From an uncultured Caulobacteraceae bacterium (lineage in GTDB: Bacteria; Pseudomonadota; Alphaproteobacteria; Caulobacterales; Caulobacteraceae), in NCBI GenBank assembly GCA_964432415.1, contig CAYSNW010000008.1:15726-79725 (forward strand): DNA of 64,000 nt, in the 5' to 3' direction. Positions 1 through 45,634 of the stretch are shown here, piece after piece. Position 1 is the stretch's first letter; the number at the start of each line of letters is the position of its first letter. The notes beneath the pieces were generated by a model that saw only the letters and a list, made by a program, of their open reading frames with translations, was not told the DNA's origin and made no database searches. The position numbers and the translations under genes were made by a program.

Positions 1-691
1 CGGTCCACCAGGCCAGGGGCGTGAGCAACAGCGCGCTCAAGCCGAACCAGATTAGCATCCTCACCTGCCAGGGCGAAAGCAGGGGCCGGGGCGGCTCCAG
101 CACGACCCACTTGCCGTCCGGGCGATGAAATCCGGCGAGGAACGGCGGAAATACCAGATTGTCGCGCAGGATCATCATCCCCGGGGAGCCGGCGTCCAGC
201 ACCTCGGGCGGAATCTGGGCACGGCCGGCGCCCGACCGGCGCATGATGATGGTCTCGCTGGAACGCCGCGCGGTGACCGTCACCTGCATGTGAGAGTCGA
301 AGTGCTTGCGATGCATTTCGGCCCCGGGGCCCGCACGCATGCGGAAGTCGGGGACCACGGCAGCGCGGACCCGGTCGACGGGCGCGCCCAGTTCCCGGGC
401 CAGGCTGGCCTCCAGAATGTCCTCGAGGCCGCGCTCACCGGCCGGGGGGGGCGGTCCCAGGTCTGGCGCCTGGTCCTGGACCCGCACCACCAGCCGCTTG
501 CCGTCGCGCGCGGTGACCGCCTCGCCCCTGAGCGCGCGGGCAGCCTCGGTGACCGAGAAGCCCCGGGGCGGCGGATCGGGAAGGGTCAGCACCACGGCCA
601 GGTTGATCACCTGGGCGGCCACGACGCTGAGCAGGGCCAGTCCCAGCACCTGCAGGAAGATCGGCGCCCCGCCGAGCGACGGGCGCTTCAT
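1..691 (-). CDS. sensor histidine kinase, N-terminal portion (continues beyond window start); partner of the adjacent OmpR-type regulator
   Basis: Minus-strand translation from the ATG at 689-691 reads MKRPSLGGAPIFLQVLGLALLSVVAAQVINLAVVL... (membrane anchor) and stays open to position 1. The ATG overlaps the regulator stop codon (ATGA). It is absent from the ORF track because it runs off the window edge. Confidence 0.5.
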   Translation of the reverse strand, partial: MKRPSLGGAPIFLQVLGLALLSVVAAQVINLAVVLTLPDPPPRGFSVTEAARALRGEAVTARDGKRLVVRVQDQAPDLGPPPPAGERGLEDILEASLARELGAPVDRVRAAVVPDFRMRAGPGAEMHRKHFDSHMQVTVTARRSSETIIMRRSGAGRAQIPPEVLDAGSPGMMILRDNLVFPPFLAGFHRPDGKWVVLEPPRPLLSPWQVRMLIWFGLSALLLTPLAWWT

Positions 692-1413
692 CGGCGCACC
701 ACGGAGGCGGCGAACATGTAGCCCTCGCCGCGCACGGTGCGGATGACGTCCCGGCCGGTGCCGTCATCCAGCTTGCGGCGCAGGCGGCTGATCTGCACGT
801 CGATGGCGCGGTCGAAGGCGTCGCTCATCGGCCCGCGCGCCAGGTCCAGCAGCTGATCGCGGGTCAGCACCCGCTCGGGCCGCTCCACGAAGATGCGCAG
901 CAGGTTGAACTCGCCGGAAGACAGGTTGACCACCACGCCGGTGGGGGAGGTCAGCTCGCGACGGACCAGGTCGAGGCGCCAGCCGTCGAACTCCACAGAC
1001 GGGCCCAGGGTCGCGGGGCCAGACGGCTCACGGCGGCGGCGCAGCACCGCCTTGACCCGCGCGAGCAGCTCACGCGGATTGCAGGGCTTGGGCAGGTAGT
1101 CGTCGGCGCCCAGCTCCAGGCCGATGATCCGGTCGGTGTCCTCGCCCATAGCGCTCAGCATGATCACCGGCGGGCCTGCGGCCCCGGATAACCGCTTACA
1201 GATCGACAGACCGTCCTCGCCCGGCAGCATCAGGTCCAGCACCACCAGATCCGGCGCGCCCTCGCGCAGGGCCGCGTCCATGCCGCGCGCGTCCGCCGCC
1301 GTATCCACCACATAGCCGTGGCGGCTGAGGAACTCGCTCAGCACGTCGCGGATGCCCGGATCGTCGTCGACGACCAGGATTCGGGCGGAGGGGGTCTCGG
1401 CGACGACGTTCAT
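688..1413 (-). CDS. OmpR-family two-component response regulator (receiver plus winged-helix domain)
   Basis: 241 aa. Receiver motifs ILVVDDD...DLVVLDLMLPGEDG and a C-terminal winged-helix (...RLRRKLDD...IRTVRGEGY). High GC3 codon bias. Confidence 0.9.
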   Translation of the reverse strand: MNVVAETPSARILVVDDDPGIRDVLSEFLSRHGYVVDTAADARGMDAALREGAPDLVVLDLMLPGEDGLSICKRLSGAAGPPVIMLSAMGEDTDRIIGLELGADDYLPKPCNPRELLARVKAVLRRRREPSGPATLGPSVEFDGWRLDLVRRELTSPTGVVVNLSSGEFNLLRIFVERPERVLTRDQLLDLARGPMSDAFDRAIDVQISRLRRKLDDGTGRDVIRTVRGEGYMFAASVVRR

Positions 1414-1591
1414 GGCTTCAGAGTCACACGGCTGAATCGCAACAGGATTTCATCTCTGCAATATTGCCCGCGGCCAATTGTGGGCAGGATGTTTCAAGCC
1501 GGACACGATCGGACAAACCGTTGCAATGTCCAGCGGGCAAACCAGCGTCGAACGGGATTCGAACCCGACGCATCGAGAACACAAAAAAGGG
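1414..1591. promoter_or_regulatory. divergent intergenic region between the OmpR-type regulator and the EF-hand/Met-rich protein gene; contains the palindrome GCAATATTGC (about 1458-1467) and a second TGCAAT half-site (about 1522-1527); AAGGG RBS before 1592
   Basis: Palindrome and half-site read directly from the sequence. Regulatory role is inferred from the divergent arrangement only. Confidence 0.3.
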
Positions 1592-2338
1592 ATGACGATG
1601 AACACCAGGATCTGGATCGCGCCGCTGGCCCTCGGGGCGGGCCTGGCGCTGGCGCTCTCCGCCGCCGCGGTGGCCCAGGACGGCAAGAAGGAAGTCCACA
1701 GCGAAGTGATCGTGATGAGCGGCGACGGCCATGGCGAACCCGGCGGCCCGGGCATGCACATGCGCATGATGGGCGGCCCGCACCATCCGCCCCTGGCCGA
1801 GATGGACACCAATAAGGACGGCGTGGTCTCCAAGGAGGAGTTCATGGCCTTCCATGCGGCCATGTACGACAAGATGGCGGCCGAACACGGCGGCTCGCTG
1901 AAGGTGCCGCCTCCGCCGGTCAAGCACGACATCAAGATCATCGTCGACGGCAAGGAGCTGAAGCCCGGCGAAATGCCCCCCGGCATGGAGATGATGGAAG
2001 GCGGCGACGGCCCCGGCATGCGCACCTTCACCCTGCGCCGCGGCGAAGGCGGCGAGGGCGGCGACCACAACGTCATGATCATGCGTCACGGCCCCGGCGG
2101 GCCGGACGGTCCGGGCGAGCACATGAAGATGGGCGAACCCATGCGCTTCGAGGCCATGGACAAGAACCATGACGGGAAGATCTCGTTCGAGGAGTTCGCT
2201 GGCCCGATGCGCCAGGCCTTCGAGCACCTGGACGCCAATCATGATGGGTCTTTGTCCAAGGAAGAGCTGGCCAAGGCCCACATGAACGTGCGTGTCGAGA
2301 CCCGCGTGCGCGACGAGAAGCACGACGACAAGCACTAG
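1592..2338 (+). CDS. periplasmic EF-hand calcium-binding protein with Met/His-rich (copper-type) motifs
   Basis: In-frame ATG at 1592 (MTMNTRIWIAPLALGAGLALALSAAAVAQ, signal peptide) inside ORF 1478..2338. Three canonical 12-residue EF loops (DTNKDGVVSKEE, DKNHDGKISFEE, DANHDGSLSKEE). Met/His-rich stretches MHMRMMGGPHHPP, MPPGMEMMEGG, HNVMIMRHG, EHMKMGEPM. Confidence 0.8.
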   Translation: MTMNTRIWIAPLALGAGLALALSAAAVAQDGKKEVHSEVIVMSGDGHGEPGGPGMHMRMMGGPHHPPLAEMDTNKDGVVSKEEFMAFHAAMYDKMAAEHGGSLKVPPPPVKHDIKIIVDGKELKPGEMPPGMEMMEGGDGPGMRTFTLRRGEGGEGGDHNVMIMRHGPGGPDGPGEHMKMGEPMRFEAMDKNHDGKISFEEFAGPMRQAFEHLDANHDGSLSKEELAKAHMNVRVETRVRDEKHDDKH

Positions 2339-3324: not shown

Positions 3325-3531
3325 AAGGGGCGGGGCGGCGGATCTCGCGGCCCGCCGCCCCAGGTCTCGATCAGAGGGGATATGCGGGTTTCGAGGGATG
3401 AATCCGCGCGTCGATCGTTAACCGCGCTCGCGCTTTGCGGAGGTCGATTGCGACCAATCGGGCCGTGGTTGCGGCGAAAGTCGACGCCTTGTTCACCGGT
3501 TTTGGGGTAAAATGCTGACACATTCGGGGAC

Positions 3532-4659
3532 ATGCGCGCATCAATGAGCCTCCCGCCGTTCCTTCGTCAGCGACCGGTCCGTGAGATCGCCGGCCTGACC
3601 GTCGTCCTGTGGGCGGTGGTCTATGCCGTGTTCATGCTTCCCAGCGGCGCCGCCGGCAAATGGGAGCTGTGGCGCTTTCTGGTCAACGCCAAGGTCGCCG
3701 CCTTCGGGCCCTTCATCTCCCTGATGTTCTACCCGGCCATGGTCACCACCCGGGCCTGGACGCTCGGCCGGCGCATCGCCCTGTTCGGCCTGCTGATCTT
3801 CCTGGCCGCGGCGGTGCATTCGCTGATCGACGCCCGGATCATGATCGACGACCGCAAGATCTACATGCCCGACGATCACAGCTGGCAGTTCTGGCCGGTC
3901 GTCTACCAGGGCTTCCTGATCTATTTCTGGCTCTATGGCCTGTACGTGGCCGCCATCGGCCTGCTCCTGTCGCGCTACGCCTCCCAGGAGCGTGACCGTC
4001 AGCTGACCGAGGCCCGGGCCGCCGCCCACCAGGCCCAGCTCGAGGCCCTGCGCTTCCAGCTGAACCCGCACTTCCTGTTCAATACGCTCAACGCCATCTC
4101 CTCGCTGATCGTCACCGGGCGCAACGCCGACGCCGAGTCCATGACCGCCAAGCTGTCGGACTTCCTGCGCTCGTCGCTGGCGTCCGATCCGCACAGTGTC
4201 ATCCCGCTGGCCGACGAGGTCGCGGCCGTGCGCGCCTATCTCGATATCGAGACCGTCCGTTTCGGCGAGCGCATGGCGGTGGAGGTGGTCTGCCCCGCAT
4301 CCCTGGCGGACGCCCTGGCGCCCAGTTTCGTGCTCCAGCCCCTGGTCGAGAACGCGGTCAAGTACGCGGTCGCCCCGGCGCGGCGGCGCGTGAAGATTTC
4401 GGTCAAGGCCCAATCCCGTGACAATGACCTGATCCTGGTCGTCGAGGACGACGGCGATGGCCACCCACCGTCCTCGACCGCGGTCGGGGTCGGTGTGGGT
4501 CTCGAGAACGTGCGCCGCCGCCTGCAGGTGCTGTACGGCGAGCGCGGCTCGATCGAGGTCGGAAAACTACCGGGGGGCGGCTTTCGCGCCGTCCTGAAAC
4601 TGCCGCTGGAACGGGTCGGTCCCACCGCCCAGATAGTAAAGATCAGGAGTGTCGCGTGA
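3532..4659 (+). CDS. LytS/YehU-family sensor histidine kinase (membrane-embedded 5TM sensor plus His_kinase/HATPase), paralog 1
   Basis: LNPHFLFNTLNAI phospho-acceptor motif (PF06580-like), G-box VGVGLENVRRRL, N-terminal TM helices. The stop overlaps the regulator GTG start (GTGA). Confidence 0.85.
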   Translation: MRASMSLPPFLRQRPVREIAGLTVVLWAVVYAVFMLPSGAAGKWELWRFLVNAKVAAFGPFISLMFYPAMVTTRAWTLGRRIALFGLLIFLAAAVHSLIDARIMIDDRKIYMPDDHSWQFWPVVYQGFLIYFWLYGLYVAAIGLLLSRYASQERDRQLTEARAAAHQAQLEALRFQLNPHFLFNTLNAISSLIVTGRNADAESMTAKLSDFLRSSLASDPHSVIPLADEVAAVRAYLDIETVRFGERMAVEVVCPASLADALAPSFVLQPLVENAVKYAVAPARRRVKISVKAQSRDNDLILVVEDDGDGHPPSSTAVGVGVGLENVRRRLQVLYGERGSIEVGKLPGGGFRAVLKLPLERVGPTAQIVKIRSVA

Positions 4660-5423
4660 CCCTCAGAGTCTTGATTGTCGACGATGAGCCCCTGGCGCTC
4701 GAACGATTGAAGGTCGCCTTCGGCCAGATCGACGGCGCCGTGATCGTGGGCGAGGCCAAGGACGGAGAGGAGGCCGCCCAGCGTATCCGGGCCCTTGCCC
4801 CGGACCTGGTGTTGCTGGACGTCCAGATGCCGGCGCTCGACGGCCTGCAACTGGCTGCCGCCCTGGTGGGCGAGGACCGGCCTGAGGTCGTCTTCGTCAC
4901 CGCGTTCCAGCACTTCGCCGCCGAGGCCTTTGAGGTCGAGGCCGCTGACTACCTGCTCAAGCCCGTGCGTTTCGACCGGCTGAAGCAGGCGGTGGAGCGG
5001 GCGCGGCGCCGGCGTCAGGCGCGCCTGGCCATGTCCAGCCTGAAGCCCGCGGCCAACGACAGCAGCCCCTACGACTCAGAAATCTGGGCTCCGACCAACC
5101 GGGGCCTGGTTCGCGTGCCGGTCGAGCAGATCGTGTGGATCGAGGCGGCCGGCGACTACGCCATGCTGCACACCGAGGCGCGAAGCTACATGATCCGCGC
5201 CACCATGACCGCGCTGGAGCAGAAGCTCGACCCGACCAAGCTGGCGCGGGTGCACCGCTCGGCCTTCGTGCGCCTGTCCTCGGTCCAGACCGTCAAGCGG
5301 CTCGGCAAGGGGCTGATCTCGCTGATTCTGCCGGACGGCGCGGAGGTCCATGTCGGCCCGAACTACACCCAGTCGGTGCTCACGGCCTTGAAGTCGGCTC
5401 CGCAACAGGCGGCGAACGCCTGA
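4656..5423 (+). CDS. LytTR-family response regulator (receiver plus LytTR DNA-binding domain)
   Basis: MTLRVLIVDDEPLALERL...LLDVQMPALDG receiver. C-terminal LytTR-like region (VPVEQIVWIEAAGDYAMLHT...). Confidence 0.9.
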   Translation: MTLRVLIVDDEPLALERLKVAFGQIDGAVIVGEAKDGEEAAQRIRALAPDLVLLDVQMPALDGLQLAAALVGEDRPEVVFVTAFQHFAAEAFEVEAADYLLKPVRFDRLKQAVERARRRRQARLAMSSLKPAANDSSPYDSEIWAPTNRGLVRVPVEQIVWIEAAGDYAMLHTEARSYMIRATMTALEQKLDPTKLARVHRSAFVRLSSVQTVKRLGKGLISLILPDGAEVHVGPNYTQSVLTALKSAPQQAANA

Positions 5424-5450
5424 GGGCGATAGACGGACAGGCGCCACAAC

Positions 5451-6578
5451 ATGCGGCTATCGATGAACCTGCCGCCCTACCTTCGTCAGCGTGGCGTTTA
5501 CGAGATCGTCTTCGGGACCCTGGCCCTGTGGGCGGTGGTCTACGCCGTGTTCATGCTTCCCAGCGGCGCCGCCGGGAAGTGGGCCCCATGGCGTTTCCTG
5601 GTCAACTTCAAGATCGCCGCCTGCGGACCGCTGATTTCGACGATGTTCTATCCGGCGTTGCTGGCGACCCGGACCTGGAGCTTCGTCCGGCGGTGCGCCC
5701 TGATGGGGATTCTGGTCGCGGTCGCCACCGGACTCCACTCCCTGATCGACGCCAGGATCGTGGTCGACGCCCGCGGTGTCTACGTGCCCGACGACCACAC
5801 CTGGCGCTTCTGGCCCATCGTCTTCGACAGCCTGATGATCTACACTTGGCTCTACGGGATGTATGTCGCGGTCCTTGCCCTGATGCTGTCGCGCTACGCG
5901 TCGCAGGAGCGTGACCGCCAACTCGCGGAGGCGCGCGCGGCCACCCACCAGGCCCAGCTCGAGGCCCTGCGCTTCCAGCTCAATCCGCATTTCCTGTTCA
6001 ACGCCCTCAACGCCATCTCCTGTCTGATCGTCACAGGCCGCAACGCCGACGCGGAGGCGATGATCGGCAAGCTGTCGGATTTCCTGCGCTCGTCCCTGGC
6101 GTCGGAGCCGCACAGCGTCATTCCCCTGGCTGAGGAGGTCGCTGCGGTCCGCGCCTATCTCGACATCGAGACCGTGCGTTTCGGCGAACGCATGGAGGTG
6201 GAGGTGATCTGTCCGGGGCCCCTGGCCGACGCCCTGGCGCCCAGCTTCGTGCTGCAGCCACTGGTCGAAAACGCCGTCAAATACGCCGTGGCGCCCGCGC
6301 GACGCCGGGTGAAGATCCTGGTCAAGGCCTCGACGCGGGAGAACGATCTGATCCTGGTGGTCGAGGATGACGGTGACGGCCATCCGCCGTCTTCGACCGC
6401 CATCGGCGTCGGGGTGGGGCTCGAGAACGTGCGTCGGCGCCTGCAGGTGCTCTATGGCGAGCGCGGCTCGATCGAGGTCGGCAAGCTCCCCGGAGGTGGA
6501 TTCCGGGCGGTTCTGAAATTCCCGCTGGAGCGGGTCGGCCCCGTAGCCGAGATCGTGCAGATCAGCAGCGTGGCGTGA
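5451..6578 (+). CDS. LytS/YehU-family sensor histidine kinase, paralog 2 (about 80% aa identity to paralog 1, same length of 375 aa)
   Basis: Colinear with 3532..4659 across the whole length, including identical H-box and G-box segments. DNA is about 85-90% identical over long stretches. Confidence 0.85.
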   Translation: MRLSMNLPPYLRQRGVYEIVFGTLALWAVVYAVFMLPSGAAGKWAPWRFLVNFKIAACGPLISTMFYPALLATRTWSFVRRCALMGILVAVATGLHSLIDARIVVDARGVYVPDDHTWRFWPIVFDSLMIYTWLYGMYVAVLALMLSRYASQERDRQLAEARAATHQAQLEALRFQLNPHFLFNALNAISCLIVTGRNADAEAMIGKLSDFLRSSLASEPHSVIPLAEEVAAVRAYLDIETVRFGERMEVEVICPGPLADALAPSFVLQPLVENAVKYAVAPARRRVKILVKASTRENDLILVVEDDGDGHPPSSTAIGVGVGLENVRRRLQVLYGERGSIEVGKLPGGGFRAVLKFPLERVGPVAEIVQISSVA

Positions 6579-6606
6579 CCCCGGCGAGCGGAGTCCAGAG
6601 CGGGCG

Positions 6607-7203
6607 TCAGCCGGCCTTGGACAGTCCCGGATCCGGGGCCGCGTCGCGGAACTTCTCGAGCTGTTTGGCCATGGCCTTCGCCGCCTGACGCGTGGGTTCG
6701 TCGCCGCGTGCGGCCAGGGCCATCAACTCGGCGGCCGAAGCCAGCAGGGCCTGGGAGGCGTCGGCGCCCTGGGTGTAACGCTCGTGCAGGCGCGAGCGGG
6801 CCTGGCGCAGGGCGTGCTCGGTCTTGGCCTGACGCAGGGCGAAGCGGATCTGGCGGGTCATCAGCCGCCAGTTGATCGGCTTGACCGCAAAGCCGGTGGC
6901 GCCGAGCTCGAAGGCGCGATCCAGGGCTGAGGTGTCGTCGCGGGCGGTGACCACCAGGACGGGGAGGAAGCGCCAGCGCTCGTCGGCGCGGATGGCCTCG
7001 AGCACCTCGAAGCCGTCCATCATCGGCATGGCCAGGTCCAGGATCACCAGGTCGACAGGATTGCCGCGCAGGTGCTCCAGCGCATCCATGCCGTCGCAGG
7101 CGAGGGCGAGATGCACGGGCTCGTCGGCGAGCTGCGCGCGCGCATGATCGCGCAGCAGTTCGTCATCGTCGGCCAGCAGCAGGTTCACGGTCGTCTTGGG
7201 CAT
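6607..7203 (-). CDS. single-domain response regulator (CheY-like receiver) with a C-terminal helical extension
   Basis: LLLADDDELLRDH...DLVILDLAMPMMDG receiver motifs and no output domain. Convergent with HK paralog 2. Confidence 0.8.
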   Translation of the reverse strand: MPKTTVNLLLADDDELLRDHARAQLADEPVHLALACDGMDALEHLRGNPVDLVILDLAMPMMDGFEVLEAIRADERWRFLPVLVVTARDDTSALDRAFELGATGFAVKPINWRLMTRQIRFALRQAKTEHALRQARSRLHERYTQGADASQALLASAAELMALAARGDEPTRQAAKAMAKQLEKFRDAAPDPGLSKAG

Positions 7204-7277
7204 CGTTCTGATGGCCCCATTCAGTTCGGGGCGAACTTCGCAGACAGACCTTAAGACGGCGTCAAGGGGCTGAGCGG

Positions 7278-8783
7278 TTACGGCTTTTTCTCATACAGAC
7301 GGGCGTGGGCCTCGCGCAGCGCCGCCTTCTGCACCTTGCCCATGGCGTTGCGGGGCAGGTCAGGGACGAAGATCACCCGCTTGGGGACCTTGAAGGCCGC
7401 CAGGCGCTCACGCAGCGCAGCGATGATCGTGGCCTCCGCCGGCGCCTCGCCGCGCGGCACCACCACAGCGGTCACCGCCTCGCCGAAGTCGGCGTGCGGC
7501 AGGCCGATCACCGCCGATTCCTCGACCCCCTCCAGGGCGTCGATCTCGCTCTCGACCTCCTTCGGGTACACGTTGAAGCCGCCGGTGATCACCAGATCCT
7601 TGCCGCGCCCGACGATGAAGACGTAGCCTTGCGCGTCGCGGTAGCCGAGATCGCCTGTGATGAAGAAGCCGTCGGCGCGAAACTCCTGCGCCGTCTTCTC
7701 AGGCATGCGCCAGTAGCCTTTGAAAACATTCGGACCCTTGACTTCAATCACCCCGATCTCGCCGTCGGGAAGCACGCGGCCGTTCTCCGGCTCCGCTATG
7801 CCGACCTCGACCCCGGGGAGGGCAGGGCCGACCGACCCCGGGACCCGTTCGCCCTCGTAGGGATTCGAGGTGATCATGTTGGTCTCGGTCATCCCGTAGC
7901 GTTCCAGGATGACGTGGCCGGTCCGTTCGCGCCACTGCTGGTGGGTCTCGGCCAGCAGGGGCGCCGAGCCGGAGACGAACAGGCGGATATTCCGCGTCAG
8001 GTCCCGGTCCAGCCGGGGCTCGTCCAGCAGGCGCGTATAGAAGGTCGGCACCCCCATCATGGCTGTGGCCCGGGGCAGGGCGTCCAGCATGGCCGGGGCG
8101 TTGAAACCGGGCTGGAAGATCATCGATGCGCCTGCCGCCATCAGGGTGTTGGTGGCCACGAACAGGCCGTGGGTGTGATAGATCGGGAGGGCGTGGAGCA
8201 GGACGTCTTCGGCGGTGAAGCGCCAGGCGTCCTTAAGCGTCAGGGCGTTGGAGGCCAGGTTGTCGTGGCTGAGCATCGCCCCCTTGGACCGTCCCGTGGT
8301 GCCCGAGGTGTAGAGGATCGCCGCCAGGTCCGACCCCGCGACTGGGACGTCCCGGAATTCGCCTGACGCCTCGACCACGAGGTCCGCGAGGCTGCCCCGA
8401 CCCTGGGCGTCGAGCCCTTCGGTCCGCCGGCTCGCCAGCGCCCGCACGGCCTCGACCCGATCGGGCGAGACCACCACCAGGGCCGGCTCGGCGTCGCCGA
8501 GGAAATACTCCAGCTCCGGCAGGGTGTAGGCCGTGTTGAGCGGCAGGAAGACCGCCCCGGCCCGCACGCAGGCCAGGTAGAGGACCAGCGCCTCGGGGCT
8601 CTTCTCGACCTGCACGGCGACCCGGTCGCCCGGGCGAACCCCACAGGCGGCGAGGGCGTTCGCCCATCGGCTCGTAGCCTCCAGCAGGCCGCCGTAGGTC
8701 AGGACGCCACCCTCCGGCCGGATCAGAAACGGGCGGGCGGAATCGACGGCGCGGACGCCGAGCTGGTCGAGGAGCGAGGCCAT
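7278..8783 (-). CDS. matB: AMP-dependent synthetase/ligase, malonyl-CoA synthetase (MatB)-like
   Basis: LYTSGTTGRSKGAMLSHDNL AMP-binding motif. Long colinear similarity to rhizobial MatB (ERYGMTETNM...GDLGYRD...VITGGFNVYPKEVE), recalled from memory. Confidence 0.7.
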   Translation of the reverse strand: MASLLDQLGVRAVDSARPFLIRPEGGVLTYGGLLEATSRWANALAACGVRPGDRVAVQVEKSPEALVLYLACVRAGAVFLPLNTAYTLPELEYFLGDAEPALVVVSPDRVEAVRALASRRTEGLDAQGRGSLADLVVEASGEFRDVPVAGSDLAAILYTSGTTGRSKGAMLSHDNLASNALTLKDAWRFTAEDVLLHALPIYHTHGLFVATNTLMAAGASMIFQPGFNAPAMLDALPRATAMMGVPTFYTRLLDEPRLDRDLTRNIRLFVSGSAPLLAETHQQWRERTGHVILERYGMTETNMITSNPYEGERVPGSVGPALPGVEVGIAEPENGRVLPDGEIGVIEVKGPNVFKGYWRMPEKTAQEFRADGFFITGDLGYRDAQGYVFIVGRGKDLVITGGFNVYPKEVESEIDALEGVEESAVIGLPHADFGEAVTAVVVPRGEAPAEATIIAALRERLAAFKVPKRVIFVPDLPRNAMGKVQKAALREAHARLYEKKP

Positions 8784-19564: not shown

Positions 19565-19654
19565 TGGCGGACGGGGTGGGATTCGAACCCACGGTAGGCT
19601 CTCACCTACGGCGGTTTTCAAGACCGCTGCCTTAAACCACTCGGCCACCCGTCC
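19565..19654 (-). tRNA. tRNA-Ser (anticodon UGA), 90 nt with a long variable arm and encoded CCA
   Basis: Reverse complement reads GGACGGGTGGCCGAGTGGTTTAAGGCAGCGGTCTTGAAAACCGCCGTAGGTGAGAGCCTACCGTGGGTTCGAATCCCACCCCGTCCGCCA. Anticodon loop CTTGAAA, T-arm GGTTCGAATCC, and a 7-bp acceptor stem pairing GGACGGG with CCCGTCC. Confidence 0.85.
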
Positions 19655-19801: not shown

Positions 19802-20446
19802 GTGAAACGCGGACAATTCATCACCCTGGAAGGCGGCGAGGGCGCCGGGAAATCCACCCAGGCCCTGCGCCTGACCGCGCGCCTGCGCGCGCTCGGCCTG
19901 GAGGTCGTGCAGACGCGCGAGCCCGGCGGCTCCGACGGGGCGGAGGCTCTGCGATCGCTGCTGGTGCAAGGCGGCGCCGACCGCTGGTCGCCGATCGCCG
20001 AGGCGCTTTTGATGTATGCGGCCCGCTCGGACCATCTGGACCGGGTGATCCGCCCGGCGCTGGACCGGGGCGCCTGGGTGGTCTGCGACCGCTTCGCCGA
20101 TTCGACCCGGGCCTATCAGGGCGCCGGCGGTGGCGTCCCGGCCTCGGTGGTCGAGGAGATCGACCGCGCGGTGGTCGGCGCCGACCAGCCGGACCTGACC
20201 CTGATCTTCGACCTGCCGGTGGAGGTGGGGCTGGAGCGCGCCCATGCGCGCGGCGGCGACGCCCGCTTCGAGTCCAAGGGCCTGGAGTTCCACACCCGCC
20301 TGCGCGCCCTGTTCCTGGCGCTCGCCGACCAGCAGCCGGACCGCTGCGTGCGCATCGACGCCCACGCCCAGGTCGACGACGTGGCCGAACGGGTCTGGCG
20401 GGCGGTCGAGACCCGGCTGCTGGACGGCGCGGTCTTCGATGCCTGA
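19802..20446 (+). CDS. tmk: thymidylate kinase
   Basis: KRGQFITLEGGEGAGKST P-loop and DRF...SxxAYQG motifs. GTG start chosen by homology; the ORF-track start at 19742 is a TTG. Confidence 0.85.
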   Translation: MKRGQFITLEGGEGAGKSTQALRLTARLRALGLEVVQTREPGGSDGAEALRSLLVQGGADRWSPIAEALLMYAARSDHLDRVIRPALDRGAWVVCDRFADSTRAYQGAGGGVPASVVEEIDRAVVGADQPDLTLIFDLPVEVGLERAHARGGDARFESKGLEFHTRLRALFLALADQQPDRCVRIDAHAQVDDVAERVWRAVETRLLDGAVFDA

Positions 20447-21428
20447 GCTGGCTCACCCGCGCGACGTCTATGACTACCGGGGCGGCGAGACGGTGGAGGC
20501 GACCTTTCTCGACGCCCTGGCCCGGGGGCGGCTGCACCACGCCTGGCTGCTGACCGGGCCCGAGGGCATCGGCAAGGCGACCTTCGCCTACCGCGCCGCG
20601 CGGCGGCTGTTGGGGGGCGCGCCGGACGACCGCTACGGCCTGCTGGGGGTGGCCCCGGAGGATGCGGAGGCGCGGCTGGTCGCGGCCCGCTCCCACCCAG
20701 ACCTGCTGGTGCTGGAGCGTCAGAGCGAGGACGGCAAGGTCAAGAAGTTCATCAGCGTGGACGACGCCCGGGCCCTGCCGGATTTCTTCGCCCGCTCGCC
20801 CTCCCGGTCGAAATACCGGGTGGCCATTGTCGACGCCGCCGACGACATGAACGTCAATGCAGCCAACGCCTTGCTGAAGACTCTGGAGGAACCGCCTGAG
20901 CGGGGCGTGCTGCTGCTGGTCGCCCATGCGCCGGGCAGGCTGGTGGCCACCATCCGCTCGCGCTGCCGCCGGCTGGCCTTCCGGCCCTGGAGCGACGACG
21001 CGGTCGCGGCCTTCCTCTCCGCGCGCTCGGAGCTGGGCATGGAACAGGTCGAGGCGGTGGCGCGCATGGCGCGTGGCGCGCCGGGACGGGCCCTGACGCT
21101 GGCGGCCGGCGAAGCGCTGGAGTTCGACGCCCTGGCCCGCGACCTGGTCTCGGGCGAATACCCCGGCGAGGCGGCGCTGCTGCATCTGACCGACAAGTTC
21201 CGCGGCGCCGAGGGCCAGATCCGCTTCGAGCTGCTGTTCGAACGCCTTGCCGAGGCCGTGCGCGAGCGGGCGATCGGGGAGGGGGGAGCATCGGTTGAAC
21301 GCTGGGCGACCCTGTGGGACAAGCTGGCCGCCGCGCCGGGTGAGGCGGACGCCATCAACCTGGACCGCGCAGACGTGTTCTGGACCCTGACCGGCGAACT
21401 CAAGGCCCTGCGCGCCCAGACCGGATAA
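20439..21428 (+). CDS. holB: DNA polymerase III delta-prime subunit
   Basis: HHAWLLTGPEGIGKATFAYRAARRLL with the RSRC SRC motif. The ATG overlaps the tmk stop. Confidence 0.8.
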   Translation: MPELAHPRDVYDYRGGETVEATFLDALARGRLHHAWLLTGPEGIGKATFAYRAARRLLGGAPDDRYGLLGVAPEDAEARLVAARSHPDLLVLERQSEDGKVKKFISVDDARALPDFFARSPSRSKYRVAIVDAADDMNVNAANALLKTLEEPPERGVLLLVAHAPGRLVATIRSRCRRLAFRPWSDDAVAAFLSARSELGMEQVEAVARMARGAPGRALTLAAGEALEFDALARDLVSGEYPGEAALLHLTDKFRGAEGQIRFELLFERLAEAVRERAIGEGGASVERWATLWDKLAAAPGEADAINLDRADVFWTLTGELKALRAQTG

Positions 21429-30980: not shown

Positions 30981-33020
30981 TCAGGCCGCCTGCGCCGGTT
31001 CGGCCTTGCCCCTGCGCCTGCGAGTTCCCGGCGTCTCGTCGTCGTTGATCGGGACGTCGAGCTTGTCGGCCAGCAGCAGGGTCATCAGCGCCTGCATCAC
31101 CCCGCCGCCGCCTGCTGTCTGGCCCTCGCCGGCGGAGCCGCCGTTGATCTGGACCTTCGGGACCACGTCCACGCCGCTGGTCTCCAGCGCCTGGGCGAAG
31201 CGCTCGGCCACCTGGCGGGCCAGCTGGTAGCGGGCGCCGCCCGACGCGGTGACCTGCTTCTCGATCGCCTGGGCCTGGGCCAGGCCCACCTTGGTCACCC
31301 GTTCAGCTTCGGCGGACGCGAGGGCCACGATCTTGCCGGCCTCGCCCTCGCCGGTGATGCGCAGGCGGTCGCCCTCGGCCGCGGCGAGCGCGCGGGTCTG
31401 GTCGGCGTCCTGCTGGGCGCGGGCCAGCGCCGCCTTGCCCTCGTTCTGGCGCACCTGGATCGACAGCTCCGACTCGGTGATCGCGGTCTGCTGCTTGGCC
31501 TTGGCTTCGGCTTCGCGCAGCTCACGCTCCTTCTGGGCGGCGAACTTCTGCCGCTCGTAGGTGCCCACCTGTTCGTCGGCGATCTGGCGCTGACGCAGCT
31601 GGGTCAGGATCACCTCGATCTGGTTGTCGCCTGAGGCCGAGGGTCGCGGCGTGCCGATCAGCACCTCCTGCAGCTCGAGGTTATAGACCGCGAACTTGGT
31701 CTTCATATCCAGGGACGAGCTGTCCTGGATGGCGCTGCGATCCTGAAGAAGTTCAATCAGGGTGCGGGTTTGGGCGATGTTCTTGAAGTAGGCCGAGACC
31801 ATGGGGTCCAGGGTCTGTTCGACCAGCTTCTTGATGTCGCCGAAGCGCTGCACCACCAGCGGGGCCTTGCGGTAGTCGATGTGCACGACGACCGACAGCG
31901 GCAGCGTCGGCTCGAAGGCGTCGCGGGTTATCAGCGATACCTCCGCCAGGTTCTCGTCCAGCCGATGGGCGCCGGAGACGGTCGAATCCCACTTCAGGAT
32001 GAAGTTGGTGGTCGGCACCATCAGCACCCGGCCCGCATAGGTGTTGAAGGCGTACTTGCCGGGCAGCAGCGGGTCCGCCCACACGCCGCGGCGGCCGTTT
32101 TCGACCAGTTCGCCATGGCGGTAGCCCTCGCCCGAGGTGTCGGCGCCGGCCTCGCCGGTATAGCTGACCACCACGCCCGCGTGGCCGACCTCGACCACGG
32201 TCTTGGCGATGCGTTCGACCGTCGCGAACAGGCGATTGATGTAATAGGTGCCCTCGACGAGCACCTGCAGCTGACGGCCCTGGCGGCCGCCCGCGGCCAG
32301 GAACTTCTGGGGATCCTGGAAGCTGTTGTGGAAGGTCTCGGTGTCCGAGGCGTCCTGACCGACCGTGGGCGCAATGATCTCGCCCGCCGGCAGGCCGGGG
32401 CCGTCGTGGACGGTGACCACGCCGATCTGGTCGTCGGCGTCCTTGATCACCACAGGCTCGAAGCCGTCGCGTTCCTCGATGATCTCCGACATCTGGTCGA
32501 GCAGCGCCATGTCCGCGTTGTCCAGGCGCAGAGCGAAGGTCTGGTCCTTGGTCACCACCACGAACTGGGCGAGGTTGATGGCATAGGCGCCCTCACGCAG
32601 GATCTTGCGCTGGGGTCCCTTCTGGCCGCCGCGGGCCAGGAATTCGCGAGTGTCCTGGAAGTTGGTGTCGAAGGGATTGGCGGCCAGGGTCTGATCGGCG
32701 GCCAGCGGCAGGCCGTCGCGGGCGAAGACATAGCCGATGCGGCCCTGGGGAATGGTCACCAGGGACTGGACGTGCAGGCGATACTGGAACGGCACGAAGA
32801 AGTGGATGCCGCCGCGCAGCACCTCGGGCTGGAAGCCGGCCTCGCCGTTCAAGGCGATCAGGCCGGATTTGATGGAGCCCTTGCCGCTCCACAGCTTTTC
32901 GACAACAGCGGTCCTGTTGTTGCCGATGTACCGGACCATCCCTGAGGACAGGAGCAGCACGACGCCGCCGAGCCCGGCGATGGCCAGGGCCCAGGGGGCG
33001 TATTCGATGAGCGAGGACAT
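30981..33020 (-). CDS. flotillin-like SPFH/Band-7 protein (YqiK family, about 680 aa)
   Basis: N-terminal TM MSSLIEYAPWALAIAGLGGVVLLL, tandem SPFH segments, long EA-rich coiled-coil C-terminus. The start is the internal Met at 33018-33020. Confidence 0.85.
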   Translation of the reverse strand: MSSLIEYAPWALAIAGLGGVVLLLSSGMVRYIGNNRTAVVEKLWSGKGSIKSGLIALNGEAGFQPEVLRGGIHFFVPFQYRLHVQSLVTIPQGRIGYVFARDGLPLAADQTLAANPFDTNFQDTREFLARGGQKGPQRKILREGAYAINLAQFVVVTKDQTFALRLDNADMALLDQMSEIIEERDGFEPVVIKDADDQIGVVTVHDGPGLPAGEIIAPTVGQDASDTETFHNSFQDPQKFLAAGGRQGRQLQVLVEGTYYINRLFATVERIAKTVVEVGHAGVVVSYTGEAGADTSGEGYRHGELVENGRRGVWADPLLPGKYAFNTYAGRVLMVPTTNFILKWDSTVSGAHRLDENLAEVSLITRDAFEPTLPLSVVVHIDYRKAPLVVQRFGDIKKLVEQTLDPMVSAYFKNIAQTRTLIELLQDRSAIQDSSSLDMKTKFAVYNLELQEVLIGTPRPSASGDNQIEVILTQLRQRQIADEQVGTYERQKFAAQKERELREAEAKAKQQTAITESELSIQVRQNEGKAALARAQQDADQTRALAAAEGDRLRITGEGEAGKIVALASAEAERVTKVGLAQAQAIEKQVTASGGARYQLARQVAERFAQALETSGVDVVPKVQINGGSAGEGQTAGGGGVMQALMTLLLADKLDVPINDDETPGTRRRRGKAEPAQAA

Positions 33021-33180
33021 TTGTCCCTCTGTTTGACACCGGCACACGCCGGCGTGGGAAGAGGTATGGTGGCGCTTGCGGCCCACAATAGAGTTGCGAG
33101 CCATTCGCAGCCATCACGCGAGATTTGATCGCTTGGTGAATTGTCGTGAGGACGCGATGCTGTGGTGTCGGGGGAGGCGG

Positions 33181-44749: not shown

Positions 44750-45634
44750 ATGCTCAAGCCCGCCCTGCTCGCCCTGCTCCTCGCCACCCCTGCCCTCGCG
44801 CAAGTGGCCCCACACGCCGGCCGCGCCCTTCAGCTCACCCACTCCGTCACCGTCGACCCCTCCCCGTCGCCGGACGGCGCTCACCTGGTCCACATCCGCG
44901 TGGTCAGCGGCCGCGAGCAGCTCTTCGTCATGGACGCCGACGGCGCCCACCCCCGCCAGATCACCTTCGACGACGCCGATCACGAGGATCCCGCCTGGTC
45001 CCCGAAGGGCGACCGTATCGCCTATGTCCTGATGAAGGGCGGCTCGGAGGTCATCCATCTGATGAACCCCGATGGCTCGAACGATGTCGCCCTGACCCCG
45101 CAGAATCAGAAGGTCATCCATCCCAACTGGGCGCCGGACGGGCTGAGCCTGGCCTACTGCACCGACGACGACGAGCACCCGCCGGCCAAGAACACCTCCG
45201 ACATCTGGTCGATCGACATCGCCACCCGCCGCGCCAAGCGCCTGATCACCGGCGGGATCAACACCTATCCGTCCTGGTCCCCGGACGGGCGGCGTCTCGC
45301 CTTCCGCAGGATCATCGGCGACATGAACTCCGAGGTCTTCGTCGCCAACGCCGACGGCTCGGACGCGCGCAACATCACCAATCACTGGTCCTTCGACGGC
45401 TGGCCCGCCTGGTCGCCGGACGGGACCCGCATCGCCTTCGCGTCTAACCGCAACGCCAACTACCAGATCTTCGTGATGAAGCCCGACGGTTCGGACGTGC
45501 GCCTGGTCGCCAACACCGAGGGCCGCGCCACCGCCCCGCTGTGGTCCCCAAAGGGCGACGTCCTGTACTTCCCCATCTGTCGCAAGGCCGACTTCGGCGG
45601 CGACTGTGAGATCTTCTCGGCGCCGGCGCCTTAA
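44750..45634 (+). CDS. periplasmic TolB-like WD40/PD40 beta-propeller repeat protein
   Basis: GGAGG RBS. Signal peptide MLKPALLALLLATPALA. Repeated PxWSPDG motifs. Confidence 0.8.
   Translation: MLKPALLALLLATPALAQVAPHAGRALQLTHSVTVDPSPSPDGAHLVHIRVVSGREQLFVMDADGAHPRQITFDDADHEDPAWSPKGDRIAYVLMKGGSEVIHLMNPDGSNDVALTPQNQKVIHPNWAPDGLSLAYCTDDDEHPPAKNTSDIWSIDIATRRAKRLITGGINTYPSWSPDGRRLAFRRIIGDMNSEVFVANADGSDARNITNHWSFDGWPAWSPDGTRIAFASNRNANYQIFVMKPDGSDVRLVANTEGRATAPLWSPKGDVLYFPICRKADFGGDCEIFSAPAP

What the first reader, a model, noticed from the sequence alone, without database searches (positions are those of the whole stretch)
3532..6578. Recently duplicated LytS-type sensor kinases flanking a single LytTR response regulator (HK-RR-HK)
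The two 375-aa kinases are colinear and about 80% identical at the protein level, with long near-identical DNA stretches. Their catalytic halves are nearly identical, and differences concentrate in the 5-TM sensing module. Only one LytTR regulator lies between them; it is GTGA-coupled to HK1 and 27 nt upstream of HK2. This suggests two membrane-embedded sensors with diverging input specificity feeding one output regulator. That arrangement is uncommon and unstudied for the LytS/LytTR class. A convergent receiver-only protein (6607-7203) sits immediately downstream.
Basis: seen in the sequence. Interest (0 to 1): 0.6.

Follow-up and report, generated by a model that had tools for sequence, protein, structure and literature searches.

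The report
Old kinase duplicate flanking one regulator
An alphaproteobacterial two-component operon carries an old, still-functional second copy of its small membrane sensor kinase right after its single LytTR regulator, which is a rare gene order but an ordinary kind of signalling-gene duplication.

Summary
The genes are real: HK1 3532-4659, LytTR regulator 4656-5423 (GTGA overlap), HK2 5451-6578 (27-nt gap), and a convergent receiver at 6607-7203. HK1 and HK2 are 299/375 (80%) identical without gaps. The TM module is 66% identical and the kinase core 90%.

- The duplication is not recent. Synonymous sites are saturated (pS 0.46, as between orthologues only 72-74% identical), and the longest exact DNA run is 37 nt.
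- No gene-conversion tract was found.
- The sensor has four TM helices, not five, and lacks the 5TMR-LYT and GAF domains. The architecture is AlgZ/FimS-like, but the G1/G2 ATP-lid boxes are present.

Both copies are under purifying selection (omega 0.17) and keep all catalytic motifs. HK2 is the derived copy, with 10 of 11 changes at family-conserved sites.

The closest relatives, including a syntenic locus, have a single HK-RR. None of 161 related loci shows HK-RR-HK, and about ten carry two anciently diverged kinases.

A conserved 9-bp direct repeat with a 21-bp period lies upstream of HK1 only, and upstream of the kinase in 26 of 80 related loci. This suggests one autoregulated HK1-RR-HK2 operon.

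The orphan receiver travels with the neighbouring AMP-binding gene.

Two sensors feeding one regulator is plausible but untested. Interest is modest.

The parts
3450..3478 (+). Candidate operator for the LytTR regulator. It is two 9-bp direct repeats (GCGACCAAT ... GCGGCGAAA) with a 21-bp period, 53 nt upstream of the HK1 ATG.
   Evidence: The site is conserved in the syntenic loci L081 and L084. The pattern matches here with 0 mismatches, and only 0.38 matches are expected per window. The relaxed pattern KCGAYSAA-N13-KCGRCGAA occurs upstream of the kinase in 26 of 80 related loci against 1.9 expected. Binding by the regulator is inferred, not shown.
3508..3513 (+). Possible -10 hexamer TAAAAT. 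It would place the direct repeat at about -70 to -42 of a promoter with a weak -35.
   Evidence: Read directly from the sequence. The consensus promoter scan reported nothing in this region. This is inference only.
3532..4659 (+). HK1, a 375-aa sensor kinase with four TM helices, a PF06580 His_kinase (DHp) domain and HATPase_c. It is the copy in the ancestral position and retains ancestral residues.
   Evidence: Pfam His_kinase 1.2e-25 and HATPase_c 2e-12. The AF2 model has helices 14-40, 46-72, 78-111 and 120-174. The syntenic single-copy orthologue is in L081. HK1 matches the family consensus at 10 of the 11 conserved sites where the two copies differ.
4656..5423 (+). Response regulator (REC + LytTR DNA-binding domain, 255 aa). 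Its GTG start overlaps the HK1 stop as GTGA.
   Evidence: Pfam Response_reg 7.2e-25 and LytTR 1e-18. It scores below the NCBIfam cut-offs for BtsR (148 against 246 bits) and LytR (103 against 375 bits). It is 74% identical to the L081 regulator and 90% to the L086 regulator.
5451..6578 (+). HK2, a 375-aa paralogue of HK1 (80% identical). It sits 27 nt after the regulator with no operator repeat of its own, and it is the derived copy.
   Evidence: BLASTP 299/375. Omega is 0.17 and all catalytic motifs are kept. HK2 is absent from L081, L082, L083, L084 and L086. It carries the derived state at R17Y, L22G, A53F, A93T, L137M, A165T, T185A, S191C, D219E and L357F.
6607..7203 (-). Receiver-only protein (REC plus a roughly 80-aa helical tail, 198 aa), convergent with HK2. 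It is a neighbour and probably belongs to the AMP-binding-gene transcription unit (7278-8783, -) rather than to the kinase module.
   Evidence: Pfam Response_reg 2.4e-23. It has only one close homologue, P0124 at 64% identity; all other hits are generic OmpR-type receivers. In L085 the homologue again directly follows the C-terminus of an AMP-binding gene. It is absent from syntenic L081.

Best explanation
This is an autoregulated two-component operon of the short AlgZ/FimS-like branch of the LytS/YehU (PF06580) kinases. A 4-TM, membrane-embedded sensor kinase is paired with a LytTR-type response regulator.

In this lineage the kinase gene was duplicated long ago, and the copy (HK2) sits immediately downstream of the regulator. 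HK1-RR-HK2 is therefore most likely transcribed as one unit, from a promoter controlled by a conserved direct-repeat operator upstream of HK1.

Both kinases are intact and have been maintained by purifying selection. Their DHp/catalytic cores are 90% identical, so both most likely exchange phosphate with the single LytTR regulator. That would be a many-to-one arrangement, and heterodimers may also form.

HK1 keeps the ancestral residues. HK2 has accumulated the changes at otherwise conserved sites, in both the membrane module and the H-box region, so it is the copy that has shifted in signal response and/or kinase-phosphatase balance.

Shown: the gene structure, the domain content, the age and selection pattern, the lineage-specific origin, the rarity of the order, and the conservation of the repeat.

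Inferred: co-transcription, binding of the regulator to the repeat, phosphotransfer from both kinases, and any difference in the signal sensed.
For: - ORFs and junctions.
- Domains. Four TM helices.
- 80% identity with no gaps.
- pS 0.46, dN 0.125, omega 0.17; omega is 0.34 in the TM module and 0.07 in the core, with equal pS in both halves.
- pS is saturated relative to orthologues.
- No gene-conversion tract.
- HK1 and HK2 are sister to each other, with single-copy P0003/P0004 as outgroup.
- Syntenic L081 has OmpR-RR, EF-hand, esterase, HK, RR and a convergent AMP-binding gene, but no HK2 and no receiver.
- L082-L084 and L086 also have a single HK-RR.
- 0 of 161 related loci have HK-RR-HK.
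- The H, N, G1 and G2 positions are invariant or nearly invariant in the family and are kept in both copies.
- The co-varying HK positions 172, 188, 195, 202 and 212 are identical in both copies, and 191 is S/C.
- HK2 is derived at 10 of 11 conserved sites.
- The operator repeat is enriched 26 against 1.9 upstream of kinases, and is present only before HK1 in this locus.
- No terminator-like site was found between the three genes.
- No other PF06580 kinase or LytTR regulator is in the window.
Against: - No experiment or expression data exists. Co-transcription and phosphotransfer are inferred from proximity and sequence conservation only.
- The co-variation analysis rests on about 68 effective sequences and is noisy.
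- HK2 differs at S191C, which is one of the co-varying positions, and at T185A next to the phospho-histidine. That threonine is invariant in 43 of 43 close relatives, so partner or catalytic behaviour may have shifted. E. coli BtsS naturally has alanine at this position.
- The rest of the genome was not available, so a second LytTR regulator elsewhere cannot be excluded.
- The operator pattern was derived partly from the loci in which it was then counted.
Confidence: 0.55

Rival explanations
1. The copies divide labour in enzymatic direction rather than in input. HK1 is the kinase for the regulator. HK2 acts mainly as a phosphatase or as a modulator, on its own or through HK1/HK2 heterodimers.
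For: - HK2 alone changed residues that are conserved around the phospho-histidine and in the DHp: A165T, T185A (T in 43 of 43 relatives), S191C and D219E.
- In the cytoplasmic half, HK2 is the derived copy at 10 sites and HK1 at 3.
- The 90% identical DHp makes heterodimers plausible.
Against: - All ATP-binding boxes and the histidine are intact in HK2.
- Alanine at position 185 occurs in the active kinase BtsS.
- The cytoplasmic omega of 0.07 shows strong conservation of the whole catalytic core.
- The phosphatase determinants of PF06580 kinases are not defined, so the substitutions cannot be interpreted.
Confidence: 0.2
2. The copies are functionally redundant or provide dosage. Both sense the same cue and signal identically, and the TM-module differences are neutral drift in a poorly constrained region.
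For: - The TM module is the fast-evolving part in all orthologue comparisons (27-43% identity against 60-75% in the core).
- The dN(TM)/dN(core) ratio is 4.1 for the paralogues, not significantly above the 2.6-2.9 of orthologue pairs.
- TM differences are not biased towards or away from conserved columns (p=0.17).
Against: - Fully redundant duplicates are rarely kept until synonymous sites saturate, yet both copies show purifying selection.
- HK2 shows an asymmetric 10:1 excess of changes at conserved positions. By an exact two-sided binomial worked out by hand (not a tool result), p is about 0.012. This points to a shifted constraint rather than symmetric drift.
Confidence: 0.15
3. HK2 is the partner of the convergent receiver-only protein (6607-7203). 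The two would form a second, insulated pathway or a phosphate sink.
For: HK2 and the receiver are adjacent (28 nt apart), and both are absent from the syntenic locus L081. The receiver keeps the acidic pocket, the Thr and the Lys of active receivers (sequence, Pfam).
Against: - The receiver is on the opposite strand.
- Its only close homologue follows an AMP-binding gene, just as it does here, so it travels with that gene.
- It resembles OmpR/PhoB-type receivers and is only 36% identical over 50 residues to the LytTR regulator's receiver.
- The RR-contacting positions of HK2 are almost unchanged from HK1.
Confidence: 0.07
4. One copy is an assembly artefact or a decaying pseudogene.
For: None beyond the existence of two similar genes 1919 nt apart.
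Against: The copies differ at 232 of 1128 nt, spread over the whole length. Both frames are open over 375 codons, omega is 0.17, and all catalytic motifs are intact.
Confidence: 0.01

Closest known systems
AlgZ (FimS)/AlgR of Pseudomonas aeruginosa
   Same: - A short kinase of about 360 aa whose first roughly 150 residues form four TM helices joined directly to the kinase core (review PMC4064291; here).
- H box RPHFLFNSL against NPHFLFNTL (7 of 9 identical).
- N box LQPLLENALIYG against LQPLVENAVKYA (8 of 12 identical).
- The LytTR regulator is encoded immediately downstream.
- The signal is unknown.
- The AlgR box CCGTTCGTC, read as its reverse complement GACGAACGG, shares the GACGAA core with the repeat units found here.
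   Different: - AlgZ is described as lacking G1, F and G2 boxes. HK1 and HK2 have DxGxG (306-310) and GxGxGL (319-324).
- AlgZR has a single kinase.
- The paired repeat with a 21-bp period seen here is not how AlgR sites are described in that review.
BtsS/BtsR (YehU/YehT) and YpdA/YpdB of E. coli; LytS/LytR of Staphylococcus
   Same: The PF06580 His_kinase + HATPase_c core is 35% identical to BtsS over 203 residues. The cognate REC+LytTR regulator is the next gene, and BtsR is the best NCBIfam match of the regulator.
   Different: BtsS has a 5TM-5TMR_LYT domain and a GAF domain and is 561 aa long. HK1 and HK2 have neither. The regulator scores below the BtsR and LytR equivalog cut-offs.
GanS kinase domain of Geobacillus stearothermophilus (PDB 6SWJ/6SWK)
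   Same: This is the closest solved structure to the cytoplasmic half (profile E 1.1e-34; Foldseek E 6.6e-12, 30% identity), with the same NPHFLFNTLN H box.
   Different: Only the cytoplasmic kinase domain is solved. The sensor part and the partner regulator of GanS were not compared here.
Tandem HK-HK-RR loci of the same subfamily (for example Rheinheimera L056, L057, L059, L070; Sphingomonas L030, L033; metagenome L129, L145)
   Same: Two PF06580 4-TM-type kinases sit next to one LytTR regulator.
   Different: Both kinases lie upstream of the regulator and are ancient paralogues at 33-36% identity. The pair here is 80% identical and flanks the regulator.
Branched (many-to-one) two-component pathways in general, for example the Roc system of Pseudomonas
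   Same: More than one sensor kinase is connected to a shared regulator. The abstract of bioRxiv 10.1101/2024.10.18.618891, listed, describes the branched Roc network.
   Different: Those systems use HisKA-type or hybrid kinases and other regulator families. Sharing of the regulator is only inferred here.

Membership tests
LytS/YehU(BtsS)-type sensor kinase, strict architecture (5TMR-LYT + GAF + His_kinase + HATPase_c) | PF06580 His_kinase (DHp) domain with the PHFLFN H box | tested here: met
   HK1 1.2e-25 and HK2 5.8e-25, full-length match 1-81/81. H180 and the surrounding NPHFLFN residues are invariant in the 45-sequence alignment.
LytS/YehU(BtsS)-type sensor kinase, strict architecture (5TMR-LYT + GAF + His_kinase + HATPase_c) | HATPase_c catalytic domain with N, G1 and G2 boxes | tested here: met
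   HATPase_c 2e-12 and 3.5e-11. N274, D306, G308, G319, G321 and G323 are conserved in the family and in both copies.
LytS/YehU(BtsS)-type sensor kinase, strict architecture (5TMR-LYT + GAF + His_kinase + HATPase_c) | N-terminal 5TM-5TMR_LYT membrane domain (PF07694) | tested here: not met
   There is no hit at E<=0.01 in HK1, HK2 or the L081 and L004 orthologues. The positive control, E. coli BtsS, gives 6.7e-59. The model has four helices, not five or six.
LytS/YehU(BtsS)-type sensor kinase, strict architecture (5TMR-LYT + GAF + His_kinase + HATPase_c) | Cytoplasmic GAF domain between the membrane domain and the DHp | tested here: not met
   There is no GAF hit, and TM4 runs directly into the DHp helix (helix 120-174). 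BtsS shows GAF_2.
AlgZ/FimS-AlgR-like system | Four TM helices in the first ~150 residues joined directly to the kinase core, total length about 360 aa | tested here: met
   Hydropathy and the AF2 model, set against the description of AlgZ in PMC4064291.
AlgZ/FimS-AlgR-like system | H box and N box resembling RPHFLFNSL and LQPLLENALIYG | tested here: met
   NPHFLFNTL (7 of 9) and LQPLVENAVKYA (8 of 12). The AlgZ motifs are from PMC4064291 and the window sequence.
AlgZ/FimS-AlgR-like system | No recognisable G1, F and G2 boxes (the atypical ATP lid of AlgZ) | tested here: not met
   DDGDG (306-310) and GVGVGL (319-324) are present and conserved. The AlgZ statement is from PMC4064291.
AlgZ/FimS-AlgR-like system | LytTR regulator gene immediately downstream of the kinase gene | tested here: met
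   GTGA overlap of HK1 and the regulator. The same HK-then-RR order is seen in about 140 of 161 related loci.
AlgZ/FimS-AlgR-like system | Regulator recognises the AlgR box CCGTTCGTC | tested here: inconclusive
   The conserved repeat units [G/T]CGAC[C/G]AA share only the GACGAA core with the reverse complement of the AlgR box. Binding was not tested.
AlgZ/FimS-AlgR-like system | Sequence orthology to P. aeruginosa AlgZ (PA5262) and AlgR | not tested
   No Pseudomonas sequence was reachable with the tools. Xanthomonadales homologues (L004, L009) are 38-40% identical over the full length.
LytTR-family response regulators | Receiver domain plus C-terminal LytTR DNA-binding domain | tested here: met
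   Response_reg 7.2e-25 and LytTR 1e-18. The regulator is not an equivalog of BtsR or LytR, as it scores below both cut-offs.
Many-to-one (branched) two-component pathway | Both kinases exchange phosphate with the same regulator | not testable with these tools
   Only indirect support exists. Five of the six top co-varying kinase positions are identical in HK1 and HK2, and there is one regulator in the locus and in the window.

The most novel reading that the evidence does not exclude
HK1 and HK2 have nearly identical dimerisation helices and are made from one transcript, so they may assemble into heterodimers as well as homodimers. That would give a combinatorial 4-TM sensor with two different membrane modules. 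The derived HK2 subunit (T185A and S191C next to the phospho-histidine) would then tune the kinase/phosphatase balance on a single autoregulated LytTR output. This would be a natural, minimally diverged pair for mapping how AlgZ/FimS-type membrane modules, whose signal is still unknown, perceive their cue.
Probability: 0.2. Interest if true: 0.45.

Novelty: new member of a known kind. Interest (0 to 1): 0.25.

Why it matters
This is a tidy natural example of how a two-component pathway gains a second input. A kinase duplicate has been retained for a long time next to one regulator, with clearly asymmetric evolution: HK1 is conservative and HK2 is derived.

The two kinases differ at only 76 residues, 54 of them in a 160-residue four-helix membrane module. 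Chimeras between them could therefore help to locate signal-determining residues in AlgZ/FimS-like sensors, whose stimulus is unknown even in Pseudomonas.

The conserved direct-repeat operator gives a testable handle on the regulon of this uncharacterised alphaproteobacterial LytTR subfamily.

None of this changes current concepts. Duplicated kinases and branched pathways are well known.

Tried and rejected
- Recent duplication or gene conversion: rejected. pS is 0.46, equal to that of distant orthologues. The longest run of synonymously identical codons gives a permutation p of 0.25, and the runs test gives z = -1.8.
- Adaptive divergence of the sensor module: not supported. Omega in the TM module is 0.34. 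By a chi-square worked out by hand from the counts (p about 0.13; no tool computed it), the TM:core ratio is not significantly above that of orthologues.
- 5TMR-LYT or GAF architecture: rejected.
- The receiver-only gene as a diverged inverted copy of the regulator's receiver: rejected. It is 36% identical over 50 residues, no better than its match to the unrelated OmpR-type regulator.
- Traces of a lost second regulator after HK2: only GTGACCC is shared after the stop codon. This is too short to mean anything.
- Looking up the window's own contig through P0001 and P0002: not on record. The content (NtrY-like kinase, DNA pol III delta', about 69% GC, best relatives in Sphingomonadales, Caulobacterales and Acetobacteraceae) indicates an alphaproteobacterial chromosome.
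- Genome and metagenome scans for closer relatives with HK-RR-HK: none found. The best outside hits are 60% (HK1) and 55-57% over the core only.
- Consensus promoter and terminator scans: nothing found.
- Rfam: only one tRNA, far away.
- Literature: no paper was found on an HK-RR-HK LytTR locus or on this alphaproteobacterial subfamily.
- Mapping substitutions onto the 3D model: not possible, because model coordinates are not exposed to the script tool.


Full report
**What is in the sequence**

The ORF list shows four genes. HK1 is at 3532-4659 (+, 375 aa). A 255-aa gene is at 4656-5423 (+). HK2 is at 5451-6578 (+, 375 aa). A 198-aa gene lies at 6607-7203 on the minus strand.

The HK1 stop and the GTG start of the next gene overlap as GTGA. 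The next gap is 27 nt, and the convergent gap after HK2 is 28 nt.

Pfam assigns PF06580 His_kinase plus HATPase_c to both kinases. It assigns Response_reg plus LytTR to the middle gene, and Response_reg alone to the convergent gene.

BLASTP gives 299/375 identities (80%) between the kinases, without a gap. The basic observation is therefore correct.

**How old the duplication is, and whether both copies are alive**

At the DNA level the copies are 79.4% identical. The longest exact runs are 37, 32 and 26 nt.

Nei-Gojobori counts give pS 0.46 (dS at least 0.72), dN 0.125 and omega 0.17. The membrane module (residues 1-160) is 66% identical with omega 0.34. The cytoplasmic part is 90% identical with omega 0.07. 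pS is the same in both halves.

The same pS of 0.42-0.53 is seen between HK1 and orthologues that are only 60% identical. It is also seen between flanking orthologues that are 72-74% identical. In this genome GC3 is about 0.9, so synonymous sites are saturated. The duplication is therefore old, and 'recently duplicated' is wrong.

A permutation test on runs of synonymously identical codons gives p=0.25. There is no sign of gene-conversion tracts. The high identity of the catalytic half reflects constraint, not recent homogenisation.

An assembly artefact or pseudogene is excluded.

**What kind of kinase this is**

Hydropathy shows four hydrophobic segments.

An AlphaFold2 model built on 45 homologues has mean pLDDT 88.7. 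It has helices 14-40, 46-72, 78-111 and 120-174. The last helix runs straight into the DHp helix that carries His180.

Neither copy has a 5TM-5TMR_LYT or GAF hit. E. coli BtsS, fetched as a positive control, shows both. BtsS aligns only to the core, at 35% over 203 residues.

The closest solved structure is the GanS kinase domain, 6SWJ/6SWK.

The published description of P. aeruginosa AlgZ/FimS fits the architecture. It has four TM helices in the first 150 residues, a kinase core at 151-358, H box RPHFLFNSL and N box LQPLLENALIYG. However, AlgZ is said to lack G1/F/G2 boxes (PMC4064291). HK1 and HK2 keep DxGxG and GxGxGL.

The regulator is a LytTR-family protein but falls below the BtsR and LytR equivalog cut-offs.

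The correct label is therefore a short 4-TM, AlgZ/FimS-like member of the LytS/YehU kinase superfamily, not a 5-TM LytS-type sensor.

**Where the second copy comes from**

A search of 5.8 billion proteins found the two window proteins. The next best hits were only 60% identical.

The contig of the best outside hit (L081) is syntenic. It carries an OmpR-type regulator, an EF-hand protein, an esterase, the kinase, the LytTR regulator, and then directly the convergent AMP-binding gene. There is no second kinase and no receiver.

Three further close relatives (L082-L084) also have a single HK-RR.

L086 is a short metagenome contig whose regulator is 90% identical to the window's regulator. It has the end of a kinase, the regulator, and then an unrelated signal-peptide gene.

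In a neighbour-joining tree HK1 and HK2 are sisters, with the single-copy P0003/P0004 as outgroup. The duplication is therefore lineage-specific.

Its timing relative to the L086 lineage cannot be resolved. The expected orthologue dN of about 0.13 is my own scaling of the dN values, and the observed paralogue dN is 0.125.

**How unusual the gene order is**

81 loci were fetched from species-representative genomes and close metagenome hits, and 80 more from JGI metagenomes. None of them shows HK-RR-HK.

About 140 of these loci are HK followed by RR. About ten carry two kinases. Seven of those have both kinases upstream of the regulator, one (L033) has an outlying kinase before an HK-RR pair, and L101 and L162 have other arrangements. 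In the six pairs compared, the two kinases are only 33-36% identical.

Two kinases beside one LytTR regulator is thus a recurrent minor theme. The flanking order and the 80% similarity are unique in this sample.

**Which copy changed**

Using L081 and L084 as outgroups, TM-module changes split 15:15 between the copies. Cytoplasmic changes split 10 (HK2 derived) to 3 (HK1 derived).

I then looked at columns that are conserved (at least 60%) in 43 relatives and at which the copies differ. HK2 carries the odd residue in 10 of these 11 columns: R17Y, L22G, A53F, A93T, L137M, A165T, T185A, S191C, D219E and L357F. By an exact two-sided binomial worked out by hand, p is about 0.012.

T185 lies five residues after the phospho-histidine and is threonine in 43 of 43 relatives. 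BtsS has alanine there, so the change is not inactivating.

The stronger divergence of the TM module is a family-wide pattern. The dN(TM)/dN(core) ratio is 4.1 for the paralogues and 2.6-2.9 for orthologues. A chi-square I computed by hand from those counts gives p about 0.13, so the ratios are not significantly different. It cannot be taken as evidence for new input specificity.

**Do both kinases talk to the one regulator?**

I extracted 123 adjacent HK-RR pairs (effective number about 68). I computed APC-corrected mutual information between DHp columns and receiver columns.

The top pairs link kinase positions 195, 202, 172, 191, 188 and 212 to regulator positions 16, 17, 21 and 22. That is helix alpha-1 of the receiver, the expected docking surface.

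HK1 and HK2 are identical at five of these six positions and differ S/C at position 191. This supports a shared partner, but the data set is small.

No other PF06580 kinase or LytTR regulator is in the window.

**A conserved operator**

I aligned the region upstream of HK1 with the corresponding regions of L081 and L084. This exposed GCGAYCAA-N13-GCGRCGAA at 3450-3478.

The relaxed pattern KCGAYSAA-N13-KCGRCGAA, allowing up to 2 mismatches, lies 50-285 nt upstream of the kinase in 26 of 80 related loci. These include Xanthomonadales. Only 1.9 are expected from the rest of the same loci.

Two 9-bp direct repeats with a 21-bp period is the geometry known for LytTR regulators (my own background knowledge). 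The GACGAA core equals the reverse complement of part of the AlgR box CCGTTCGTC.

In the window the site precedes HK1 only. There is nothing comparable in the 27 nt before HK2, and no terminator-like site lies between the genes. I therefore infer one autoregulated HK1-RR-HK2 operon.

The pattern was partly defined on the loci in which it was counted, so the exact enrichment is optimistic.

**The orphan receiver**

Its only close homologue (P0124, 64%) sits on a 797-nt contig directly after the C-terminus of an AMP-binding gene (79% identical to the window's). It is on the same strand, exactly as in the window.

All other hits are generic OmpR/PhoB-type receivers.

The receiver is absent from L081. 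It most likely belongs to the AMP-binding transcription unit and is a neighbour of the kinase module, not a member of it.

**Verdict**

The finding is real but more ordinary than proposed. It is an old, lineage-specific duplicate of an AlgZ/FimS-like 4-TM kinase, retained under purifying selection on the far side of its LytTR regulator. HK2 is the diverging copy.

The many-to-one reading is the best-supported mechanism (confidence 0.55) but is inferred. The gene order is rare, and the principle is well known.

Noticed in passing
window 3450-3478 (+); also L001 5862, L002 5888, L003 5914, L004 5887, L009 5888, L014/L017/L021/L024 5423, L081 5939, L084 692: A direct repeat [G/T]CGAC[C/G]AA-N13-[G/T]CGACGAA (9-bp units, 21-bp period) lies upstream of the kinase gene in 26 of 80 related loci, against 1.9 expected. 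It is a candidate autoregulatory LytTR operator for this uncharacterised subfamily. Its core resembles the reverse complement of the AlgR box.
   Followed up: yes
window 33104-33132 (-) and 45338-45366 (-): Two further matches to the operator pattern, with 1 and 2 mismatches. The first abuts the ATG of a 707-aa SPFH/Band-7 protein (30981-33104, -) in a short divergent intergenic region. It could be a regulon member or a chance match, since 0.38 matches are expected per window.
   Followed up: partly
window 688-1413 (-) and 1478-2338 (+); L081 1799-4845; L084 4-540: A secreted-looking multi-EF-hand protein is divergently placed next to an OmpR-type regulator (with a HAMP/HisKA kinase in L081). 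This block stays next to the LytTR operon in three lineages. It may be a calcium-responsive module.
   Followed up: no
window 6607-7203 (-) with 7278-8783 (-); L085 2-771: The receiver-only protein has an ~80-aa helical tail and only one close homologue in 5.8 billion proteins. In both occurrences it directly follows an AMP-binding (acyl/malonyl-CoA synthetase-like) gene on the same strand.
   Followed up: partly
L086 1-1138 (ENA ERZ28573551): The closest relative found (regulator 90% identical) has kinase-regulator with an ATGA overlap, followed by an unrelated signal-peptide gene instead of HK2. HK2 is therefore missing at this position even in a near relative.
   Followed up: partly
L056 2836-5731, L057/L059 5545-8391, L070 5347-8374, L030 4523-7514, L033 5824-10527, L129, L145: There are HK-HK-RR loci with two anciently diverged kinases (33-36% identical) before one LytTR regulator, conserved across four Rheinheimera assemblies. 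In Rheinheimera one copy has FNALN and the other FNTLN in the H box, the same T/A alternation as HK1 and HK2.
   Followed up: partly
window 12974-14794 (-): A 606-aa protein has a C-terminal papain-fold glutamine-deamidase toxin domain (PF15644, 8.7e-09). It is flanked by ORFs without Pfam hits. It may be a polymorphic toxin with an immunity gene.
   Followed up: no
window-wide (for example 3532-8783 against L081): In this genome GC3 is about 0.9, and pS plateaus at about 0.42-0.46 whether proteins are 60% or 85% identical. dS therefore cannot be used for dating here, and naive dN/dS values between distant pairs are inflated.
   Followed up: yes
window 19568-19654 (-), 20244-21428 (+), 51622-53850 (-): One tRNA, a DNA polymerase III delta' gene and an NtrY-like kinase indicate an ordinary alphaproteobacterial chromosomal region rather than a mobile element. 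The window's own contig could not be found by exact-protein look-up.
   Followed up: partly
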